From positions 21,194 to 85,193 of the forward strand of contig JAPOYR010000006.1 in NCBI GenBank assembly GCA_026706485.1: a stretch of DNA of 64,000 nt, in the 5' to 3' direction. A program made the translations under genes and the position numbers. Shown here in pieces: positions 14,971 to 19,029 of the stretch. Source of the DNA: Chloroflexota bacterium. Its GTDB lineage: Bacteria; Chloroflexota; UBA11872. Below the pieces are notes generated by a model. That model searched no databases. It saw only the letters and a program-made list of their open reading frames with translations, and was not told where the DNA came from. How positions within the stretch are numbered: the stretch's first letter is position 1; each line of letters starts with the position of its first letter.

Positions 14971-16113
14971 ATGAAGATCTCCAAGCTGCAATGCGATTTC
15001 ATCTGGACGGGTTCCCGCAACTGGCTCATCGTGCGCGTGCACACCGACGCGGGCATCACCGGCATCGGCGAGGCGTTTCCGATCGGACCCGACCGCGCCA
15101 TTGCCGAGACAGTCGATTACTTCCAATCGTGGATCGGAGGCTGGGATCCGTTCGACATCGAGCGCGTCTGGCACGAGCTCTACGCCGGCAGCCGCTTTCC
15201 CACCGGCTCGATCATCACGTCGGCCATCAGCGGCATCGACCAGGCGCTGTGGGACATCAAGGGCCGGGCGCTCGGCGTGCCGGTCTACGAGCTGCTCGGG
15301 GGCAAGGTGCGCGACCGCATCCGCGTCTACCAGTCGCCCGAGGGCGAGACGCCCGCCGCGCTTGCGGACGACGCTCGCCGCCTGGTCGAGCGCTATGGCT
15401 TCACCGCGCTCAAGATCGGCCCCTTCGCCGCGGCCGCCGACGCCTGGCCGTGGAGCCGGCAGGTCGATAGCGCCGAGGAAAGACTGGCGGCCGTGCGCGA
15501 CGCGGTCGGTCCCGACATCGACATCGGCGTCGATCCCCACGCCAAGATCTTCGAGCCCGTGCGCGCGCTGGAGATGGCCGAGCGACTGAAGCCTTATCGT
15601 CCGATGTTCTTCGAGGAACCGGTGCGGCCCGAGAACTTCGAGGCCCTGGCCAAGCTCACCGCCAAGAGTCCCATCCCCATCGCCACCGGCGAGGCGGTGT
15701 TCACCAAGTTCCAGTTCCGCGACCTGCTGGCGACGGGCGCCGCCGACATCATCCAGCCCGACGTGGCCGCCACGGGCGGGCTGACGGAGATGAAGAAGAT
15801 CGCGGCCATGGCCGAGGCGCACTACGTCAGCGTCGCGCCGCACAACCCGCTGGGACCGCTGGCGACGACGTCCAACGTGCACTTCGCCGCCACCGCGCCC
15901 AACTTCCTCATCCTCGAGTATCACGCCGACGACGTGGGCCTGCGGGCCGAAATCCTGCACGAGCCGCTGAAGCTGGAGGACGGCTACGTAGTGCTGCCCG
16001 ACGCGCCGGGACTGGGCGTCGAGTTGAACGAGGAGGTGTTCGAGAAATACCCCTACCGCCCCTGGCGCCGCGGCCGCCCCACCAAGGCGGACGGGATGTT
16101 GGCGTTCATCTAG
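14971..16113 (+). CDS. Enolase-superfamily sugar-acid dehydratase (mandelate racemase/muconate lactonizing enzyme family)
   Basis: 380 aa; D-galactonate/L-fuconate dehydratase-like. Metal-ligand region IDIGVDPH...FEEP...DIIQPD. Its TAG stop lies inside the transposon target-site duplication. Confidence 0.8.
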   Translation: MKISKLQCDFIWTGSRNWLIVRVHTDAGITGIGEAFPIGPDRAIAETVDYFQSWIGGWDPFDIERVWHELYAGSRFPTGSIITSAISGIDQALWDIKGRALGVPVYELLGGKVRDRIRVYQSPEGETPAALADDARRLVERYGFTALKIGPFAAAADAWPWSRQVDSAEERLAAVRDAVGPDIDIGVDPHAKIFEPVRALEMAERLKPYRPMFFEEPVRPENFEALAKLTAKSPIPIATGEAVFTKFQFRDLLATGAADIIQPDVAATGGLTEMKKIAAMAEAHYVSVAPHNPLGPLATTSNVHFAATAPNFLILEYHADDVGLRAEILHEPLKLEDGYVVLPDAPGLGVELNEEVFEKYPYRPWRRGRPTKADGMLAFI

Positions 16114-16203
16114 GGGATTATATACTTGACTTGATGCCAAGGCGCGGGAACGCTGGTCCGCCCCGCTGGCCGGAACCAACGGGGCGGTACCATTTTCGCT
16201 CGT

Positions 16204-16272
16204 GGGGCTGCCCCTGGTGGGGGCCGCGAAGGTTAGAGCTTGCCGGCGAGGGTTCGATCCCCTCCAGCTCCA
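16204..16272 (+). ncRNA. tRNA-like structure A (acceptor stem plus T-arm, non-canonical core)
   Basis: GGGGCTG...GAGGGTTCGATCCCCTC-CAGCTCC-A: 7-bp acceptor stem (one G-U) and canonical GGTTCGATCC T-arm. The 35-nt core cannot be folded into standard D and anticodon arms. No encoded CCA. Confidence 0.3.
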
Positions 16273-16603
16273 CACCACAGCCTAGCACGCTACCGCGCTA
16301 GCGCTGGCCTTTCGAGTCGTCGCCGTCCGACGCCTGCACCCGTAGGAGCGCCTTGGCTAGCTCCTCCGGCGTCGCGTCGTTCGGTGGGACCACGACCCGG
16401 AGTCGCTTGGCGGGCTTCGTCGGTTTCCGCGATCGTCGGGCCATGCCGAAGTATACCCCGCCACCTTTGGTACCCTTCGCGCCAGCATCAGGTCCGCGCC
16501 CGTGGCGTGGGATTCCCGGCAGCCCCAGACGGGGGCCGGGTGACCTGATGCTATGGGAATCCACCGGCAGCCGCTGGGGCTGCCCTACGTCAAGGAGTCG
16601 GGC

Positions 16604-16960
16604 ATGGATTTCACCGGGTACTTGGTCATATTCCTGGTCGTGATCGTCGTTGGCGGCGTCATTCGCTTGGCGCTCCAATCACGTCAGGAGGCGCAGGATC
16701 ATGGCGGGACGACGGACCTTGCGGAGCTCTACCGCGAGGGATGGCGCACCGAATCCGAGACCGGCACGCACGTGTTTCTCGTGAAGGGCCAGCGCGTAAA
16801 TCACATCCTGCACTTGCTGCTCTGCATCCCGACGTTCGGGCTCTGGCTGTTGGTCTGGCTGTTCGTGGCCGCGTCCGGTGGGGAACAGCGGCGGACCGTC
16901 CGCAAGGACAGCCCCGAGAGTCCGTCAAGTGACACGACCGACCGCGGCTCGCGCACCTGA
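16604..16960 (+). CDS. Small membrane protein (118 aa, 3 predicted TM), transposon cargo
   Basis: Start MDFTGYLVIFLVVIVVGGV preceded by AAGGAG RBS. TM1, charged loop, then hairpin HILHLLLCIPTFGLWLLVWLFVAAS. No family recognised. Confidence 0.5.
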   Translation: MDFTGYLVIFLVVIVVGGVIRLALQSRQEAQDHGGTTDLAELYREGWRTESETGTHVFLVKGQRVNHILHLLLCIPTFGLWLLVWLFVAASGGEQRRTVRKDSPESPSSDTTDRGSRT

Positions 16961-17103
16961 GGCCCAGCGGGTACCCTTCGCGCACCACTGGATGCGCGCT
17001 CGCGCGCGTCATATCCCGGCAGCCTCAGGCGTTGCTCGGGTGATCCAGTGGTATGGGATATGCGCCCCAGCACACGGCTGGGGCTGTCGTTTGGAGGGGT
17101 CGT

Positions 17104-17307
17104 GTGTTTACATCCATTGGGCCGCTAGAAATCCTCAGCCTGCTGCCTCTCGTGGTCATTGGGTTCCTGTTCGCCATCGCGACGTCCGCGTCAGCAACAC
17201 AGCGCGGGCACCACTGGCTGGGATGGTTCATCTGCGGCCTGTGCCTGGGGCCGCTGGCGCTGTGCTTCGCCCTGAGCCTGCAGGACTATCGGCGGGACGT
17301 AGACTGA
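17104..17307 (+). CDS. Small two-TM membrane protein (about 67 aa), transposon cargo
   Basis: GTG start after GGAGGGG RBS. VFTSIGPLEILSLLPLVVIGFLFAIA...WLGWFICGLCLGPLALCFAL. Confidence 0.35.
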   Translation: MFTSIGPLEILSLLPLVVIGFLFAIATSASATQRGHHWLGWFICGLCLGPLALCFALSLQDYRRDVD

Positions 17308-17311
17308 AGGC

Positions 17312-17659
17312 GTGCTGACGGATGACCAGCGCGTCTCGATGGGAGCACGCATGATCGCGAAAACGGGTCGCCTCGCGGACGTTGACGCGACGGTCCTAGA
17401 GGACGCCTTGGCCGAGATCGAAACGCTGACGGCGCACCTCTCACCCGACGTTCAGGATTCAGTGGCCAAGCAGTTCGTAAAAGCGTTTGGCGAGTGCCCC
17501 ACGCTCAGTCTGGAGCGTAAATCCGCACACTCGACACGTGAGGTCATTGCCCGAGTTCAACTCCCGGACCGTTGCCGGGAAATCCTCGCCGCAGTCCGGG
17601 CAGGTGAGGTTGAGCGTGTGGTTCTGATTGAGTTCCAGGCGCCAACGGGAGCGTCGTGA
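17312..17659 (+). CDS. Hypothetical soluble protein (115 aa), transposon cargo
   Basis: ORF with moderate GC3. Overlapped on the opposite strand by a 74-aa CxxC...CxxC zinc-ribbon ORF (17459-17683). Which strand is real is unresolved. Confidence 0.35.
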   Translation: MLTDDQRVSMGARMIAKTGRLADVDATVLEDALAEIETLTAHLSPDVQDSVAKQFVKAFGECPTLSLERKSAHSTREVIARVQLPDRCREILAAVRAGEVERVVLIEFQAPTGAS

Positions 17660-17780
17660 GGATCGTCGTCGCCGTGATACCATCGGCTGCCTTTCAGACC
17701 GCGTCCGGCATATTGGTTGCTGCCAAGCCGGGCGCGGTTTGTGTTTGCCCTTCAGGAACCCCTGATACTACCCCAACCGC

Positions 17781-18737
17781 CTACCGCTTGGGGTAGGCCC
17801 GCCCGCCGGCCGTGAGGTCCGCGTAGGTCAGGCGTTCGCCCACCATCCGGGCCGCAACCTCGCCCATGAGGTCCGCCGTGTCGAGTTCCCGGAGGCTCTG
17901 CCGGGTGGCCATCTCGTCCACGTAGCGCTGCAAGTGCTTGGGGCTGAAGTGGTGGTACGTCCCGTGGTAGGCCCGCTTGAGCATGGCCCAGAAGGACTCG
18001 ATGCCGTTCGTGTGCGCCTGGTCGTTCACGTACTCGCCCACACTGTGGCGGACGGTCTCGTGGTGCGGCAGGTGGTCGTAGGCCGGGTGCTCGTCCGTGT
18101 AGACCATGGCGTCCGGCGCCGCGTGGGCCGTGATGAAGAGGGCTAGCACGCTGCGGTTGATGTGGGTGATCGCCTGGGCGCGGACCTCGCGCGTCGTGCG
18201 GTCGCGCATGGCGATCACCGGAGCCTTGCCGATCGTCCCACGCCCGCGGTGCTGGCGATCCCGCGCGTGGCGGTTCTTCTCGCGGCCGCCGAAGTAGGAC
18301 TCGTCCACTTCGACCGGCCCGTCCAGCAAGTGGTCGTCAGCCGCCAGCGCTTCGCGGATGCGGTGGGCCATGAACCACGCGGACTTCTGCGTGATCTCGA
18401 GGTCGCGGTGGAGTTTCAGGCTCGACACGCCCTTGAGGTTCGTGGTGCTCAGGTAGATGCCCCACGCCCACTGGCGGAGCGTGATCTTGGAGCGCTCCAT
18501 GACGGTGCCGATCCGCACGCTGAAGTACTGGCGGCAGTCACGGCACCGGTAGGGCATGGGCTTGCCGCTGGCGACCGGCGTCACGTGCTCGCCGTCGCAG
18601 CGCGCGCACCGGACGCCATCGGGCCAGCGCTGGGCCTCAAACCACCGGCGGGCGGATTCCTCGTTCGGGAACCGGTCGGCCAGTTCCATGACGCTGATGC
18701 CCTCGCGGTGCGCTCGTCCGGGTCCCTTGGTCGCCAT
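17781..18737 (-). CDS. IS1595-family (ISXO2-like) DDE transposase
   Basis: 318 aa; N-terminal zinc-ribbon (CARCDGEH...CRDCRQYF), SYFGGREKN, GKAPVIAMRDRTT, YTDEHPAY motifs characteristic of IS1595/ISXO2 transposases. Confidence 0.85.
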   Translation of the reverse strand: MATKGPGRAHREGISVMELADRFPNEESARRWFEAQRWPDGVRCARCDGEHVTPVASGKPMPYRCRDCRQYFSVRIGTVMERSKITLRQWAWGIYLSTTNLKGVSSLKLHRDLEITQKSAWFMAHRIREALAADDHLLDGPVEVDESYFGGREKNRHARDRQHRGRGTIGKAPVIAMRDRTTREVRAQAITHINRSVLALFITAHAAPDAMVYTDEHPAYDHLPHHETVRHSVGEYVNDQAHTNGIESFWAMLKRAYHGTYHHFSPKHLQRYVDEMATRQSLRELDTADLMGEVAARMVGERLTYADLTAGGRAYPKR

Positions 18738-18808
18738 GCGTTGACCTCCGTTAAATGTGTGTAGCGACCGGGCCGACGAGATACCCGGTCGCTACACTCT
18801 CGTCTTGT

Positions 18809-18877
18809 GGGGCTGCCTCTGGCGAGGGCCGTGGGCTTCTAATCCAGGCGGCGAGGGTTCGATTCCCTCCAGCTCCA
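18809..18877 (+). ncRNA. tRNA-like structure B (same acceptor and T-arm as A, different core)
   Basis: GGGGCTGCC...GAGGGTTCGATTCCCTC-CAGCTCC-A, 69 nt. Shares the first 11 nt and last about 25 nt with structure A. Central 35 nt differ (contains CTTCTAAT loop-like segment). Direct orientation relative to A, 75 nt upstream of the transposase start. Confidence 0.3.
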
Positions 18878-19029
18878 TCTCCCAGGATGCGCGGCGGCCC
18901 GCCGCTCGTCAATCGAACAGAAACCGGACGGGCCATGTCGTGTGCTCCCTTCACTTCCTGCCCTAAGCGTAGTGGAATCCCGCCCGTTTGTCAAGTCAAG
19001 TATATAATCCCCTTCATCTAGGAATACTG

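What the first reader, a model, noticed from the sequence alone, without database searches (positions are those of the whole stretch)
16204..18877. Two tRNA-like structures inside the transposon share acceptor stem and T-arm but lack a canonical D/anticodon core
Two 69-nt segments lie at 16204-16272 and 18809-18877, both on the plus strand. Both begin GGGGCTGCC and end GAGGGTTCGAT(C/T)CCCTC-CAGCTCC-A. That gives a 7-bp acceptor helix with one G-U pair and a textbook T-stem-loop. Their central 35 nt differ completely (A: CCTGGTGGGGGCCGCGAAGGTTAGAGCTTGCCGGC; B: TCTGGCGAGGGCCGTGGGCTTCTAATCCAGGCGGC). I could not fold either core into standard D and anticodon arms; each forms instead one long hairpin. 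They are therefore not ordinary tRNA genes, nor simple att-site duplicates of a tRNA 3' half, because the 5' acceptor strand is present in both. Possibilities include degenerate tRNA-derived structural elements used by the transposon, mini-tRNA-like RNAs, or processing signals. Structure B sits 75 nt upstream of the transposase start.
Basis: seen in the sequence. Interest (0 to 1): 0.6.

Follow-up and report, generated by a model that had tools for sequence, protein, structure and literature searches.

The report
Compact alanine-type tRNA genes inside transposon
The two 69-nt segments are real, unusually compact tRNA-type genes with alanine-charging signals, carried as cargo by a jumping gene (an IS1595-family insertion sequence); relatives recur next to such transposases in many uncultured bacteria, so these mobile elements may spread odd tRNAs able to misread rare codons.

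Summary
Units A (16204-16272) and B (18809-18877) each fold as a four-arm cloverleaf. It has a 7-bp acceptor with G3:U70 and A73, a 4-bp D-like hairpin with a UGGY tetraloop, and a long interrupted anticodon-type arm. The arm ends in a 7-nt loop (A: anticodon UAG; B: UCU), followed by a textbook T arm. There are no linkers, no variable arm and no encoded CCA.

ARAGORN and Rfam miss them; B scores 32.6 bits on tRNA-Sec, below threshold.

Both lie inside a 2,900-bp ISNwi1-like IS1595 element with perfect IRs and an 8-bp duplication.

An RNA-only metagenome scan found at least 29 more such units. Covariation supports the fold (94% paired vs 75% shuffled). Nine of 31 encode CCA. An IS1595/IS1-type transposase is the only recurrent neighbour (10-11 of 31).

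Close IS relatives fill the same slot, convergent with a conserved small ORF, with allo-tRNA-like genes. These mostly also carry UAG.

Best reading: mobile, non-canonical, probably alanine-accepting tRNA genes. Whether they decode or act as regulatory tRNA mimics is unresolved. This is a new variant of the known allo-tRNA kind.

The parts
16105..16112 (.). Left copy of the 8-bp target-site duplication TTCATCTA. The insertion sits at the stop codon of a mandelate-racemase-family gene (14971-16113).
   Evidence: Sequence read; ORF and Pfam.
16113..16134 (+). Left terminal inverted repeat GGGGATTATATACTTGACTTGA (ISNwi1-like end).
   Evidence: (I1, 23 nt, 100% complementary). The same ends occur in related IS copies.
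16158..16187 (+). GC-rich hairpin 16 nt upstream of unit A (CCGCCCCG...CGGGGCGG).
   Evidence: the upstream 70 nt folds with z = -3.44. An equivalent hairpin precedes 9 of 10 IS-associated units.
16204..16272 (+). Unit A: compact tRNA-type gene. It has a 7-bp acceptor (G3:U70), discriminator A, D-like hairpin CCCC-UGGU-GGGG, long arm with loop GUUAGAG (anticodon UAG), and T arm GAGGG-UUCGAUC-CCCUC. No CCA is encoded.
   Evidence: (86.5 bits on R1).
16298..16444 (-). Conserved 48-aa small ORF (MARRSRKPTKPAKRLRVVVPPNDATPEELAKALLR...), convergent with unit A. Its stop codon lies 25 nt from the unit's 3' end.
   Evidence: homologues are in every close-clade IS; the tRNA-type gene is always convergent with it. 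No Pfam hit.
16466..16606 (+). Leader RNA motif copy 1, upstream of TM ORF 16604-16960. It is cargo of the IS, not part of the tRNA-like units.
16967..17108 (+). Leader RNA motif copy 2, upstream of TM ORF 17104-17307.
17781..18737 (-). IS1595-family transposase (318 aa; zinc ribbon plus DDE domain).
   Evidence: PF12762 133.8 bits and PF12760 32.3 bits. NF033547 191.8 bits against a cutoff of 75.
18759..18797 (+). Perfect 14-bp-stem hairpin 11 nt upstream of unit B.
   Evidence: I11; z = -3.38.
18809..18877 (+). Unit B: compact tRNA-type gene on the same chassis as A. D-like hairpin CCUC-UGGC-GAGG. Long arm with loop CUUCUAA (anticodon UCU; the MFE fold draws it as an 8-nt loop). It is divergent from the transposase start (71 nt away) and is transcribed toward IR-R.
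   Evidence: tRNA-Sec 32.6 bits, E = 7e-4; 85.8 bits.
18991..19012 (-). Right terminal inverted repeat.
19013..19020 (.). Right copy of the target-site duplication TTCATCTA.

Best explanation
Units A and B are genes for compact, non-canonical tRNAs. They are carried as cargo in a 'tRNA slot' of a 2.9-kb ISNwi1-type IS1595 insertion sequence in a Chloroflexota genome.

Shown:
- Each unit folds into a four-arm cloverleaf: a 12-bp acceptor/T branch (7/5), a miniature tRNA-Sec-like D hairpin with a GG-containing tetraloop, and a long arm of about 9 layers that ends in a 7-nt anticodon-type loop.
- The fold is conserved with compensatory changes in a family of at least 31 units.
- The family is preferentially linked to IS1595/IS1-type transposases.
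- In sister IS copies the same position is occupied by allo-tRNA-like genes (tRNA-Sec-like, long variable arm), usually with the same UAG anticodon.

Inferred:
- The RNAs are cut out by RNase P and a 3' nuclease, and CCA is added.
- They are charged with alanine, because G3:U70 plus A73 is the AlaRS identity set and AlaRS ignores the anticodon.
- With anticodons UAG and UCU they would read CUA/CUG (Leu) and AGA/AGG (Arg). CUA, AGA and AGG are among the rarest codons in this GC-rich host.
- They would therefore act as mobile missense or rare-codon decoders, as Mukai et al. showed for G3:U70 allo-tRNAs in E. coli.

I hold the identity (a functional tRNA-type RNA carried as IS cargo) at about 0.85, alanine charging at about 0.5, and actual decoding at about 0.35-0.4. 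The overall confidence given (0.5) is for the combined statement.
For: Structure:
- Both units give the same cloverleaf MFE, with a compensatory change in the D stem.
- In 31 units aligned to model R1, 94.4% of cells are paired against 74.6% in shuffles (0/500) and 40-59% when partners are slid. All 4 D-hairpin pairs and all 4 outer-arm pairs show compensatory changes.
- Strand polarity: 38 G-U against 13 A-C.

tRNA hallmarks:
- T loop UUCGAUY, GG in the D tetraloop, Y32-U33 and A37 in the loops of A and B.
- The long arm is 24-29 nt, about 9-11 layers. By textbook tRNA geometry (my recollection) the D stem, position 26 and the anticodon stem together make about 10 layers.
- Encoded CCA follows 9 of 31 units, P = 8e-10.
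- B hits the tRNA-Sec model at E = 7e-4.

IS linkage:
- A and B lie inside perfect IRs with a TSD.
- A scan using only the RNA pattern returned units whose only recurrent neighbour is an IS1595/IS1-type transposase, in 10-11 of 31 loci.
- Units are inside the IRs in L019, L049 and L192.
- L192 was found through the transposase, not through the RNA pattern, and it independently has G3:U70 and A73.

Slot:
- L002, L208, L209 and L212 carry tRNA-Sec-like units with UAG, and L213 with UGG. L005 (CGG) and L006 (GGA) carry class-II tRNAs.
- All of these except L213 are shown convergent with the conserved small ORF.
- The UAG anticodon is kept while the scaffold changes.

Rare codons: host CUA is 2.7, AGA 1.4 and AGG 3.3 per 1000 codons.

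Precedent: allo-tRNAs with G3:U70 insert Ala in E. coli. (9/3) allo-tRNAs have AGA/AGG and CUA/CUG/UUA/UUG anticodons. [quoted passage not shown]
Against: - There are no expression, processing or charging data.
- No detector calls them tRNAs.
- The single-sequence MFE z-scores are weak.
- The architecture has no U8/N9 linkers, no variable region and an interrupted anticodon stem. It is untested on a ribosome.
- Mukai et al. found that several irregular allo-tRNAs were charged but not used, or were inactive or toxic.
- About half of the family has C37-A38 instead of a purine at position 37, which is atypical for decoders. A and B themselves have A37.
- G3:U70 invariance in 28 of the 31 units (all but window A and B and L192) is by ascertainment, because the search pattern fixed it.
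- The IS's own genes contain no AGA or AGG codons, so unit B is not supplying the element's own needs.
- The CTA enrichment in the small ORF (10/41 vs 2.8%) is confounded by shared ancestry and lower GC3.
- Only 3 of 80 more distant IS1595 loci have a compact unit or relic, so it is not a general feature of the family.
Confidence: 0.5

Rival explanations
1. tRNA-shaped regulatory RNAs of the IS that are not used in translation. Each unit is transcribed against an IS messenger. Unit B runs outward, opposite the transposase 5' UTR, like IS10 RNA-OUT. Unit A and its counterparts run into the 3' end of the small-ORF/transposase transcript. The tRNA fold and the upstream hairpin would give stability or defined ends through RNase P and RNase Z. 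The RNA would dampen or time transposase or regulator expression.
For: - Geometry: units converge on, or are antisense to, the adjacent IS gene in the window (A and B), L002, L208, L209, L212, L006, L019, L035, L065 and L192. In L022, L046 and L049 they converge on a NikA-like RHH gene.
- A strong hairpin lies 2-22 nt upstream in 9 of 10 IS-linked units.
- IR-R carries an inward TTGACA-17-TACGCT by eye. This would put the antisense of unit B in the transposase leader.
- L035 has an 18-nt inverted copy of its own anticodon stem-loop.
- Mukai et al. suggest that some allo-tRNAs are regulatory or TE-linked rather than translational.
Against: - A pure antisense or stabiliser role does not explain the conserved AlaRS identity set, the T-loop and D-loop GG, the encoded CCA in 9/31, the anticodon-loop hallmarks, or the retention of UAG across different scaffolds.
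- Many units sit in chromosomal or phage tRNA-array contexts without any IS.
- No consensus promoter was found by the scan.
- Orientation relative to the transposase is not uniform.
Confidence: 0.25
2. tRNA decoys or spare parts against tRNA-targeting toxins. The units mimic the acceptor end or anticodon loop that is attacked by toxin-antitoxin or defence nucleases and transferases. The mobile element carries them to protect itself or its host.
For: - Cargo of sister IS copies includes SocA_Panacea antitoxin domains (L005, L212), an NTP_transf_2 nucleotidyltransferase (L006) and a nearby PIN/RHH pair (L209).
- Mukai et al. note that allo-tRNA genes often lie near toxin-antitoxin systems.
- The anticodon triplets are highly diverse on a constant chassis.
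Against: - The window's own IS has no recognisable toxin, antitoxin or defence gene (Pfam, NCBIfam and PADLOC; the second TM ORF was scanned in the correct frame only against Pfam).
- The link to TA genes is anecdotal in my sample and was not tested statistically.
Confidence: 0.1
3. Decaying pseudogenes or captured fragments of host tRNA-Ala or of the tmRNA tRNA-like domain, with no function of their own.
For: - The acceptor GGGGCUG...CAGCUCCA is, from my recollection of the E. coli sequence, the same as that of tmRNA, and close to tRNA-Ala.
- Detectors fail on the units.
- A 5'-degenerate relic exists in L175 and L201.
Against: - Compensatory changes occur in every helix that varies.
- A and B share a chassis but have different, well-formed arms.
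- CCA is enriched after the units.
- The units recur with transposases only 31-34% identical to ours.
- The tmRNA model scores only 9.5 bits, and no mRNA-like domain is present.
Confidence: 0.05
4. Integration or target-site elements: the tRNA-like DNA serves as an attachment or target site for the transposase or another recombinase.
For: In L104 and L119 the unit lies in a host or phage tRNA array, and the IS end appears to begin about 60-150 nt downstream of it, so the unit is outside the IS. Several viral hits lie near contig ends.
Against: - In the window, L019, L049 and L192 the units are internal to the IRs.
- The target duplications differ (TTCATCTA here, TTTGCAAA in L002 and L003).
- Both acceptor strands are present.
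- No integrase is present.
- RNA-level covariation and G-U polarity point to an RNA function, not a DNA site.
Confidence: 0.03

Closest known systems
allo-tRNAs (Mukai et al. 2017, NAR 45:2776; PMC5389517)
   Same: [quoted passage not shown]
- Anticodons unrelated to the charging identity.
- Some members carry G3:U70 and insert Ala.
- The anticodon repertoire includes AGA/AGG and CUA/CUG readers.
- A link to transposable elements and TA systems has been suggested.
- Sister IS copies here carry units with an 8-bp (or 9-bp) acceptor and a 4-bp T stem, of allo-tRNA type.
   Different: - Units A and B have a canonical 7/5 acceptor/T branch, not 8/4 or 9/3.
- They have no variable arm at all, and only a 4-bp D stem.
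- They have zero-length junction linkers and a total length of 69 nt.
- The host is Chloroflexota, which is not among the phyla listed for allo-tRNAs.
- A defined position inside an IS1595 element next to a small ORF was not described.
tRNA-like domain of tmRNA (SsrA)
   Same: An acceptor helix that matches my recollection of the E. coli tmRNA stem (GGGGCUG/CAGCUCC, with G3:U70 and A73), a T arm, a reduced D region and alanine identity.
   Different: There is no mRNA-like domain, tag ORF or pseudoknots. The length is 69 nt rather than 300 nt or more. Rfam tmRNA scores 9.5 bits and ARAGORN reports no tmRNA. An anticodon-type hairpin is present instead of helix 2.
Armless or truncated mitochondrial tRNAs (nematode and mammalian mt-tRNASer; review PMC7609411)
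   Same: Miniaturised tRNAs that keep the acceptor-to-anticodon distance while reducing or replacing the D arm and variable region.
   Different: These units are bacterial and chromosomal or IS-borne, with a fully canonical T arm and a GC-rich, stable structure. They are unrelated in sequence.
IS10 RNA-OUT antisense RNA
   Same: For unit B and L192 only: a ~69-nt structured RNA gene between the IS end and the transposase start, oriented outward and opposite the transposase leader.
   Different: Those RNAs are not tRNA-shaped. Unit A and most family members sit elsewhere. No promoter or pairing evidence was obtained here.
ISNwi1-group IS1595 elements with passenger genes (ISfinder classification, from memory)
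   Same: Terminal sequence GGnnATTAT..., 8-bp duplication, a single zinc-ribbon/DDE transposase, and extra passenger genes.
   Different: To my knowledge, and in the searched literature, passengers that are tRNA-type genes, the conserved small ORF and the structured cargo leader have not been described.

Membership tests
Canonical bacterial tRNA (Rfam RF00005 / ARAGORN) | Detected at the family threshold by a tRNA covariance model or by ARAGORN. | tested here: not met
   ARAGORN finds 0 genes in the window. There is no Rfam hit at gathering score. At E <= 10, B's best clan hit is tRNA-Sec at 32.6 bits (gathering score 47). A has none apart from a 9.5-bit partial tmRNA match.
Canonical bacterial tRNA (Rfam RF00005 / ARAGORN) | 7-bp acceptor stem, 5-bp T stem and a T loop of the form UUCRANY. 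| tested here: met
   GGGGCUG/CAGCUCC and GAGGG-UUCGAUY-CCCUC. T-stem covariation is shown.
Canonical bacterial tRNA (Rfam RF00005 / ARAGORN) | D arm with a 7-11-nt loop, U8/N9 linkers and a variable region of at least 4 nt. | tested here: not met
   The D loop is 4 nt, there are no linker nucleotides, and there is no variable region. At most there is a 2-nt bulge or a 2x2 internal loop in the long arm.
Canonical bacterial tRNA (Rfam RF00005 / ARAGORN) | 7-nt anticodon loop with U33 and a purine at position 37. | tested here: met
   A has G-U-UAG-A-G. B has C-U-UCU-A-A, although its MFE fold draws an 8-nt loop and the 7-nt form needs a G-U closing pair.
allo-tRNA (Mukai 2017) | 12-bp acceptor branch split 8/4 or 9/3. 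| tested here: not met
   A and B are 7/5. Position 8 cannot pair with the base 5' of the 3' acceptor strand. The sister units in L002, L208, L209, L212 and L213 do have an 8-bp (or 9-bp) acceptor with a 4-bp T stem.
allo-tRNA (Mukai 2017) | Long variable arm. | tested here: not met
   Absent in A and B. Present in the sister IS units.
allo-tRNA (Mukai 2017) | tRNA-Sec-like D arm (long stem plus tetraloop) and a lengthened anticodon stem. | tested here: inconclusive
   The UGGY tetraloop is present, but the stem is only 4 bp rather than 5-6. The anticodon arm is lengthened to about 9 layers but is interrupted.
allo-tRNA (Mukai 2017) | Translationally active with an identity set independent of the anticodon (Ser or Ala). 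| not testable with these tools
   G3:U70 and A73 are present in the sequence. Charging and decoding need experiments.
tmRNA | tRNA-like domain joined to an mRNA-like domain with a tag reading frame and pseudoknots. | tested here: not met
   The units are 69 nt. ARAGORN reports no tmRNA. Rfam tmRNA scores 9.5 bits against a gathering score of 47.
IS1595 family insertion sequence (the carrier element) | DDE_Tnp_IS1595 transposase with an N-terminal zinc ribbon, terminal inverted repeats and an 8-bp target duplication. | tested here: met
   PF12762 133.8 bits and PF12760 32.3 bits. NF033547 191.8 bits against a cutoff of 75. IRs are 22-23 bp and perfect. The TSD is TTCATCTA.
Cis-antisense IS regulator of the IS10 RNA-OUT type | An outward promoter inside the transposase 5' region, and pairing with the transposase mRNA start that inhibits translation. 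| not tested
   Only the geometry of unit B and L192 fits. The consensus promoter scan found nothing there.

The most novel reading that the evidence does not exclude
A lineage of IS1595 insertion sequences maintains a dedicated tRNA slot: hairpin, then irregular tRNA, convergent with a small DNA-binding-type ORF. The irregular tRNAs in the slot can be swapped. Through it, the elements spread alanine- or serine-accepting tRNAs whose anticodons target rare sense codons (CUA, AGA/AGG) or stop codons. Transposons would then be vectors of natural missense or nonsense suppression. Alternatively, they could use codon-specific mistranslation, or rare-codon dependence of their own regulator, as a control circuit. 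The compact 69-nt, variable-arm-less, 7/5 form would be the smallest bacterial tRNA architecture active in translation.
Probability: 0.25. Interest if true: 0.85.

Novelty: new variant of a known kind. Interest (0 to 1): 0.6.

Why it matters
If these RNAs are charged and used, insertion sequences would be carrying and spreading tRNAs that deliberately break the codon-to-amino-acid assignment: alanine at Leu or Arg codons here, and stop-codon readers among relatives. This bears on open questions about natural mistranslation, codon reassignment and how allo-tRNAs spread.

The compact chassis has an anticodon-independent alanine identity, no variable arm and 69 nt. It would also be a ready-made minimal scaffold for genetic-code engineering.

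If they are instead regulatory mimics, this would be a new way for a DNA transposon to use a tRNA fold to control itself.

Either way, the finding gives concrete sequences, a covariance model and a conserved genetic module (hairpin, tRNA, small ORF, transposase). These make the question directly testable.

Tried and rejected
- **Self-supply of rare codons.** I tested whether the IS carries tRNAs for its own rare codons. This is rejected for unit B, because the IS genes contain 0 AGA/AGG codons in 666 and clade transposases have about 0. For unit A it is weak: CTA is 5/666 against 1.8 expected (P = 0.04), and 10/41 Leu codons in small ORFs. That signal is confounded by ancestry and by low GC3 in the small ORF.
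- **Guide-RNA idea.** I asked whether the anticodon arm pairs with a nearby partner site. Only L035 has a long (18-nt) partner. A, B and the others have none above chance.
- **Leader as sensor of the unit.** The leader shares GGGGCUGC with the unit's 5' end. This is rejected because L002 keeps that string although its tRNA has a different acceptor, and L003 has the leader but no tRNA.
- **Upstream hairpins as intrinsic terminators.** Most lack a U tract, and the scan called none.
- **General feature of IS1595 elements.** Rejected: only 1 intact unit plus 2 relic copies in 80 loci at 49-58% transposase identity.
- **Annotated counterparts.** There are no matches in the phage or plasmid collections.
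- **Literature.** Searches for IS1595 with tRNA-like, tRNA genes in insertion sequences, or alanine-identity suppressors in metagenomes found nothing specific.
- **Errors corrected.**
  - My first regex missed the units (fixed).
  - The small ORF was first queried out of frame (corrected).
  - The second TM ORF was queried out of frame. Codon counts were corrected. Only the Pfam scan of the longer in-frame 17053-17307 ORF covers it correctly; the NCBIfam and PADLOC scans were not repeated in frame.
- **MAFFT alignment.** The MAFFT alignment of the units (A3) was not structurally usable. I replaced it with a model-based alignment (A6), which leans toward the model's structure.

Full report
**1. 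The observation**

The window holds two 69-nt segments, A (16204-16272) and B (18809-18877), both on the + strand. They begin GGGGCTGCC and end GAGGGTTCGAT(C/T)CCCTCCAGCTCCA. The 25-nt 3' motif occurs exactly twice in 64 kb and never in 100 shuffles.

The carrier element:
- It is bounded by perfect 22-23-nt inverted repeats (16113-16134 and 18991-19012).
- An 8-bp direct repeat TTCATCTA flanks it (16105-16112 and 19013-19020).
- It inserted at the stop codon of a mandelate-racemase-family gene.
- It encodes an IS1595-family transposase on the minus strand at 17781-18737. Scores are PF12762 133.8 bits and PF12760 32.3 bits, and NF033547 191.8 bits.
- The element is 2,900 bp.
- The contig is an ENA metagenome scaffold, and the transposase is annotated by NCBI as from a Chloroflexi MAG.

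**2. The fold**

RNAfold instead gives both units the same four-way cloverleaf as MFE and centroid:
- a 7-bp acceptor with G3:U70 and an unpaired A as discriminator;
- directly abutting it, a 4-bp hairpin with a tetraloop (A: CCCC-UGGU-GGGG; B: CCUC-UGGC-GAGG, a compensatory difference);
- a 25-nt arm made of a 4-bp outer stem, an internal loop or bulge, and a 3-4-bp inner stem;
- a loop that reads G-U-UAG-A-G in A and C-U-UCU-A-A in B. For B the MFE draws 8 nt, and the 7-nt form needs a G-U closing pair;
- a canonical T arm.

There are no junction linkers, no variable region and no encoded CCA.

The cores are 20/35 identical, by my hand count on the sequences, so they are not 'completely different'. 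The difference sits in the inner arm.

The single-sequence z-scores (-1.3 and -1.2) are unimpressive in this GC-rich DNA, so evidence has to come from comparison.

ARAGORN finds nothing and Rfam finds nothing at gathering scores. With relaxed thresholds, B matches tRNA-Sec at 32.6 bits, E = 7e-4.

**3. Relatives of the element**

Transposase relatives at 76-87% identity come from other metagenome contigs.
- They have the same ends, GGGGATTATATAC....
- They carry different cargo.
- They share a conserved 45-50-aa ORF...RLxVVVPPNtATPEELAkALLR (after I corrected a frame error).

A tRNA-type gene sits convergent with that ORF's 3' end:
- Window unit A is compact and has anticodon UAG.
- L002, L208, L209 and L212 have tRNA-Sec-like units with an 8-bp (or 9-bp) acceptor, a 4-bp T stem, a 6-bp D stem, a long variable arm and anticodon UAG.
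- L213 has the same type with UGG.
- L005 has a class-II tRNA with CGG. L006 has a class-II tRNA with GGA.
- L003, L207 and L211 have no such gene.

The five tRNA-Sec-like units differ by compensatory changes. The IS clade therefore has a 'tRNA slot' in which the scaffold can be exchanged, while UAG is kept in five of eight filled slots.

**4. A family of compact units**

I scanned metagenome contigs with a pattern that fixes only the acceptor strands and the T loop. The gap was set short to disfavour normal tRNAs.
- The 71-nt hits are ordinary short tRNA-Ala genes.
- The 63-70-nt hits include about 30 units built like A and B, with very diverse arms.

A covariance model seeded on five gapless 69-nt units (R1) aligned 31 distinct units. 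On that alignment:
- 94.4% of cells pair, against 74.6% in shuffles (0/500) and 40-59% when partners are slid;
- every pair of the D-like hairpin and of the outer arm stem shows compensatory changes.

The caveats are that the acceptor was fixed by the pattern and that the alignment is fitted to the model.

Further properties of the family:
- G-U outnumbers A-C by 38 to 13 in the other helices, so the tRNA-sense strand is the structured one.
- The long arm is 24-29 nt, about 9-11 layers. By textbook tRNA geometry (my recollection) the D stem, position 26 and the anticodon stem together make about 10 layers, so the elbow-to-anticodon distance is roughly preserved.
- Loops read Y32-U33-NNN, followed by A37 or an unusual C37-A38.
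- The triplets are highly diverse: UAG, UCU, CUA, UUA, GUA, CCA, GUC, GCG, UGC, ACC, UCC and others.
- Nine of 31 units are followed by an encoded CCA (P = 8e-10), as expected of real tRNA genes drawn from mixed phyla.

**5. Link to IS1595**

Among the neighbours of 31 compact units, the largest protein cluster is an IS1595-type transposase. It occurs in 10 loci, and L045 adds a fragment. This is despite many contigs being only 1-3 kb.

A Pfam survey of 80 neighbouring ORFs shows IS1 and IS1595 DDE domains as the only recurrent families. The rest are housekeeping genes.

These transposases are only 31-34% identical to the window's.

Position of the units relative to the IS ends:
- Units lie inside the IRs in L019, L049 and L192.
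- In L104 and L119 the unit sits in a tRNA array just outside the apparent IS end.

Geometry varies:
- downstream of the transposase on the opposite strand (L019, L035, L065);
- upstream on the same strand but convergent with a NikA-like RHH ORF (L022, L046, L049; PF21983);
- upstream and divergent (B and L192).

L192 was found through its transposase, not through the RNA pattern. It independently has G3:U70 and A73.

Conversely, of 80 IS1595 loci at 49-58% identity from reference genomes, only L192 has an intact unit. Many of those genomes are MAGs whose names suggest sponge-associated bacteria. L175 and L201 have a relic. The units are therefore passengers of particular lineages, not a family trait.

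A strong hairpin of unrelated sequence ends 2-22 nt upstream of 9 of 10 clearly IS-linked units. For A and B, z is about -3.4.

Viral contigs contain the chassis too, mostly as other short forms and in tRNA arrays, without IS1595.

**6. How it most likely works**

Established knowledge: AlaRS recognises G3:U70 (with A73) in the acceptor helix and ignores the anticodon.

Mukai et al. (PMC5389517) report the following:
- Irregular 'allo-tRNAs' with G3:U70 insert Ala in E. coli.
- (9/3) allo-tRNAs carry AGA/AGG and CUA/CUG/UUA/UUG anticodons.
- Some allo-tRNAs may be tied to transposable elements or TA systems.

Units A and B share the tRNA-Sec-like D tetraloop, the lengthened anticodon arm and this anticodon repertoire. 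They differ in being 7/5 and lacking the variable arm.

I therefore read them as mobile, non-canonical, probably alanine-accepting tRNA genes. If used on the ribosome, they would put Ala at CUA/CUG and AGA/AGG. CUA, AGA and AGG are among the rarest codons of this host, at 2.7, 1.4 and 3.3 per 1000.

Retention of UAG across different scaffolds in the same slot argues that the anticodon matters.

Processing, charging and decoding are all inferred, not shown.

**7. Rivals**

- **Regulatory tRNA mimic (0.25).** It is favoured by the consistent convergent or antisense placement, the upstream hairpin, and an inward TTGACA-17-TACGCT in IR-R that I see by eye. That promoter would put the antisense of B in the transposase leader, which is the IS10 RNA-OUT geometry. 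It does not explain the charging signals, the CCA, or the chromosomal and phage copies.
- **Decoy against tRNA-targeting toxins (0.1).** It rests on Panacea, nucleotidyltransferase and PIN neighbours in sister elements.
- **Pseudogene (0.05) and DNA-site (0.03) readings.** These are disfavoured by the covariation and the strand polarity.

The 'self-supply of rare codons' idea fails for B, because the IS has no AGA or AGG codons. For A it is only weakly suggested (CTA 5/666 vs 1.8 expected, plus CTA-rich small ORFs).

**8. Novelty and verdict**

Allo-tRNAs and their possible TE link are published. I found no description of:
- the compact 7/5, variable-arm-less, alanine-type architecture;
- its covariation-supported family;
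- its specific association with IS1595/IS1 transposases;
- the 'tRNA slot' module.

I rate it a new variant of a known kind, with interest 0.6.

**9. Side finding**

The IS cargo genes are preceded by a ~140-nt leader RNA. Copies are at window 16466-16606 and 16967-17108, L002 4725-4871 and L003 4631-4780.
- It has an anti-Shine-Dalgarno helix and two crossing helices.
- 98% of cells are paired, and 10 pairs show compensatory changes in three copies.
- It has no Rfam match.

Noticed in passing
window 16466-16606 and 16967-17108 (+); L002 4725-4871 (-); L003 4631-4780 (-): A ~140-nt structured leader RNA lies upstream of IS cargo ORFs (small membrane proteins in the window). Its 5' segment pairs with the Shine-Dalgarno region. 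One helix has 6 of 9 pairs compensatory. A pseudoknot helix covaries (GGAUUCC/GGAAUCC, CAUAUCCC/GGGAUAUG, CAUCUUCC/GGAAGAUG). A conserved 11-bp long-range helix joins GGCAGCCCCAG to CUGGGGCUGCC. Overall 98% of cells are paired against about 40% in slid controls. It has no Rfam match. It is a candidate translational riboswitch or cis-regulator. It is independent of the tRNA-like units, because L003 has the leader without a tRNA.
   Followed up: partly
window 16298-16444 (-); homologues in L002, L003, L005, L006, L207-L210, L136, L152/L154/L159: A conserved 45-50-aa ORF (...RLxVVVPPNtATPEELAkALLR) is a core component of this IS clade and is always convergent with the tRNA slot. It has no Pfam, NCBIfam or PADLOC hit. 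In a distant IS group (L022, L046, L049) the equivalent position holds a NikA-like ribbon-helix-helix ORF. The small ORFs use the rare CTA codon for 10 of 41 leucines, against 2.8% in host genes.
   Followed up: partly
L035 1157-1174 vs 1248-1265: An 18-nt perfect inverted copy of the compact unit's own anticodon stem-loop lies 44 nt 3' of the unit, in the transposase 3' region. No other unit has such a partner.
   Followed up: partly
L032, L027, L214, L217, L219, L220 (59 nt); L063, L038, L109, L066, L071 (66-69 nt); L222, L226, L228 (67 nt): Other families of shortened tRNA-Ala-like RNAs share the same GGGGCUG/CAGCUCCA acceptor, and most encode CCA. They include a 59-nt form with only a stub between the acceptor and the T arm, a form with a normal D arm but a 3-4-bp stub in place of the anticodon arm, and a 67-nt form in viral contigs.
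   Followed up: no
L005 5300-5791, L212 1040-1483 (SocA_Panacea); L006 3297-3641 (NTP_transf_2), L006 2528-3289 (DUF3800); L213 1443-2743 and L212 1908-3416 (N6_N4_Mtase, HNH): Genes in or next to sister IS copies include toxin-antitoxin and restriction-modification-type genes. Some of these families are known to act on tRNA acceptor ends. I did not check which of them lie inside the IS ends. This is a possible functional link to the tRNA slot, and it was not tested.
   Followed up: no
window 16099-16126 (+) and 18940-18990 (-): The terminal repeats carry promoter-like hexamers. A hybrid TTGGCG-16-TATACT spans the left junction. By eye, an inward TTGACA-17-TACGCT sits at the right end and would drive the transposase through the antisense of unit B.
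   Followed up: no
L002 2685/4907 and L003 1461/5077: Two different sister IS copies are both flanked by the palindromic 8-bp sequence TTTGCAAA, whereas the window copy has TTCATCTA. This may indicate a target preference.
   Followed up: no
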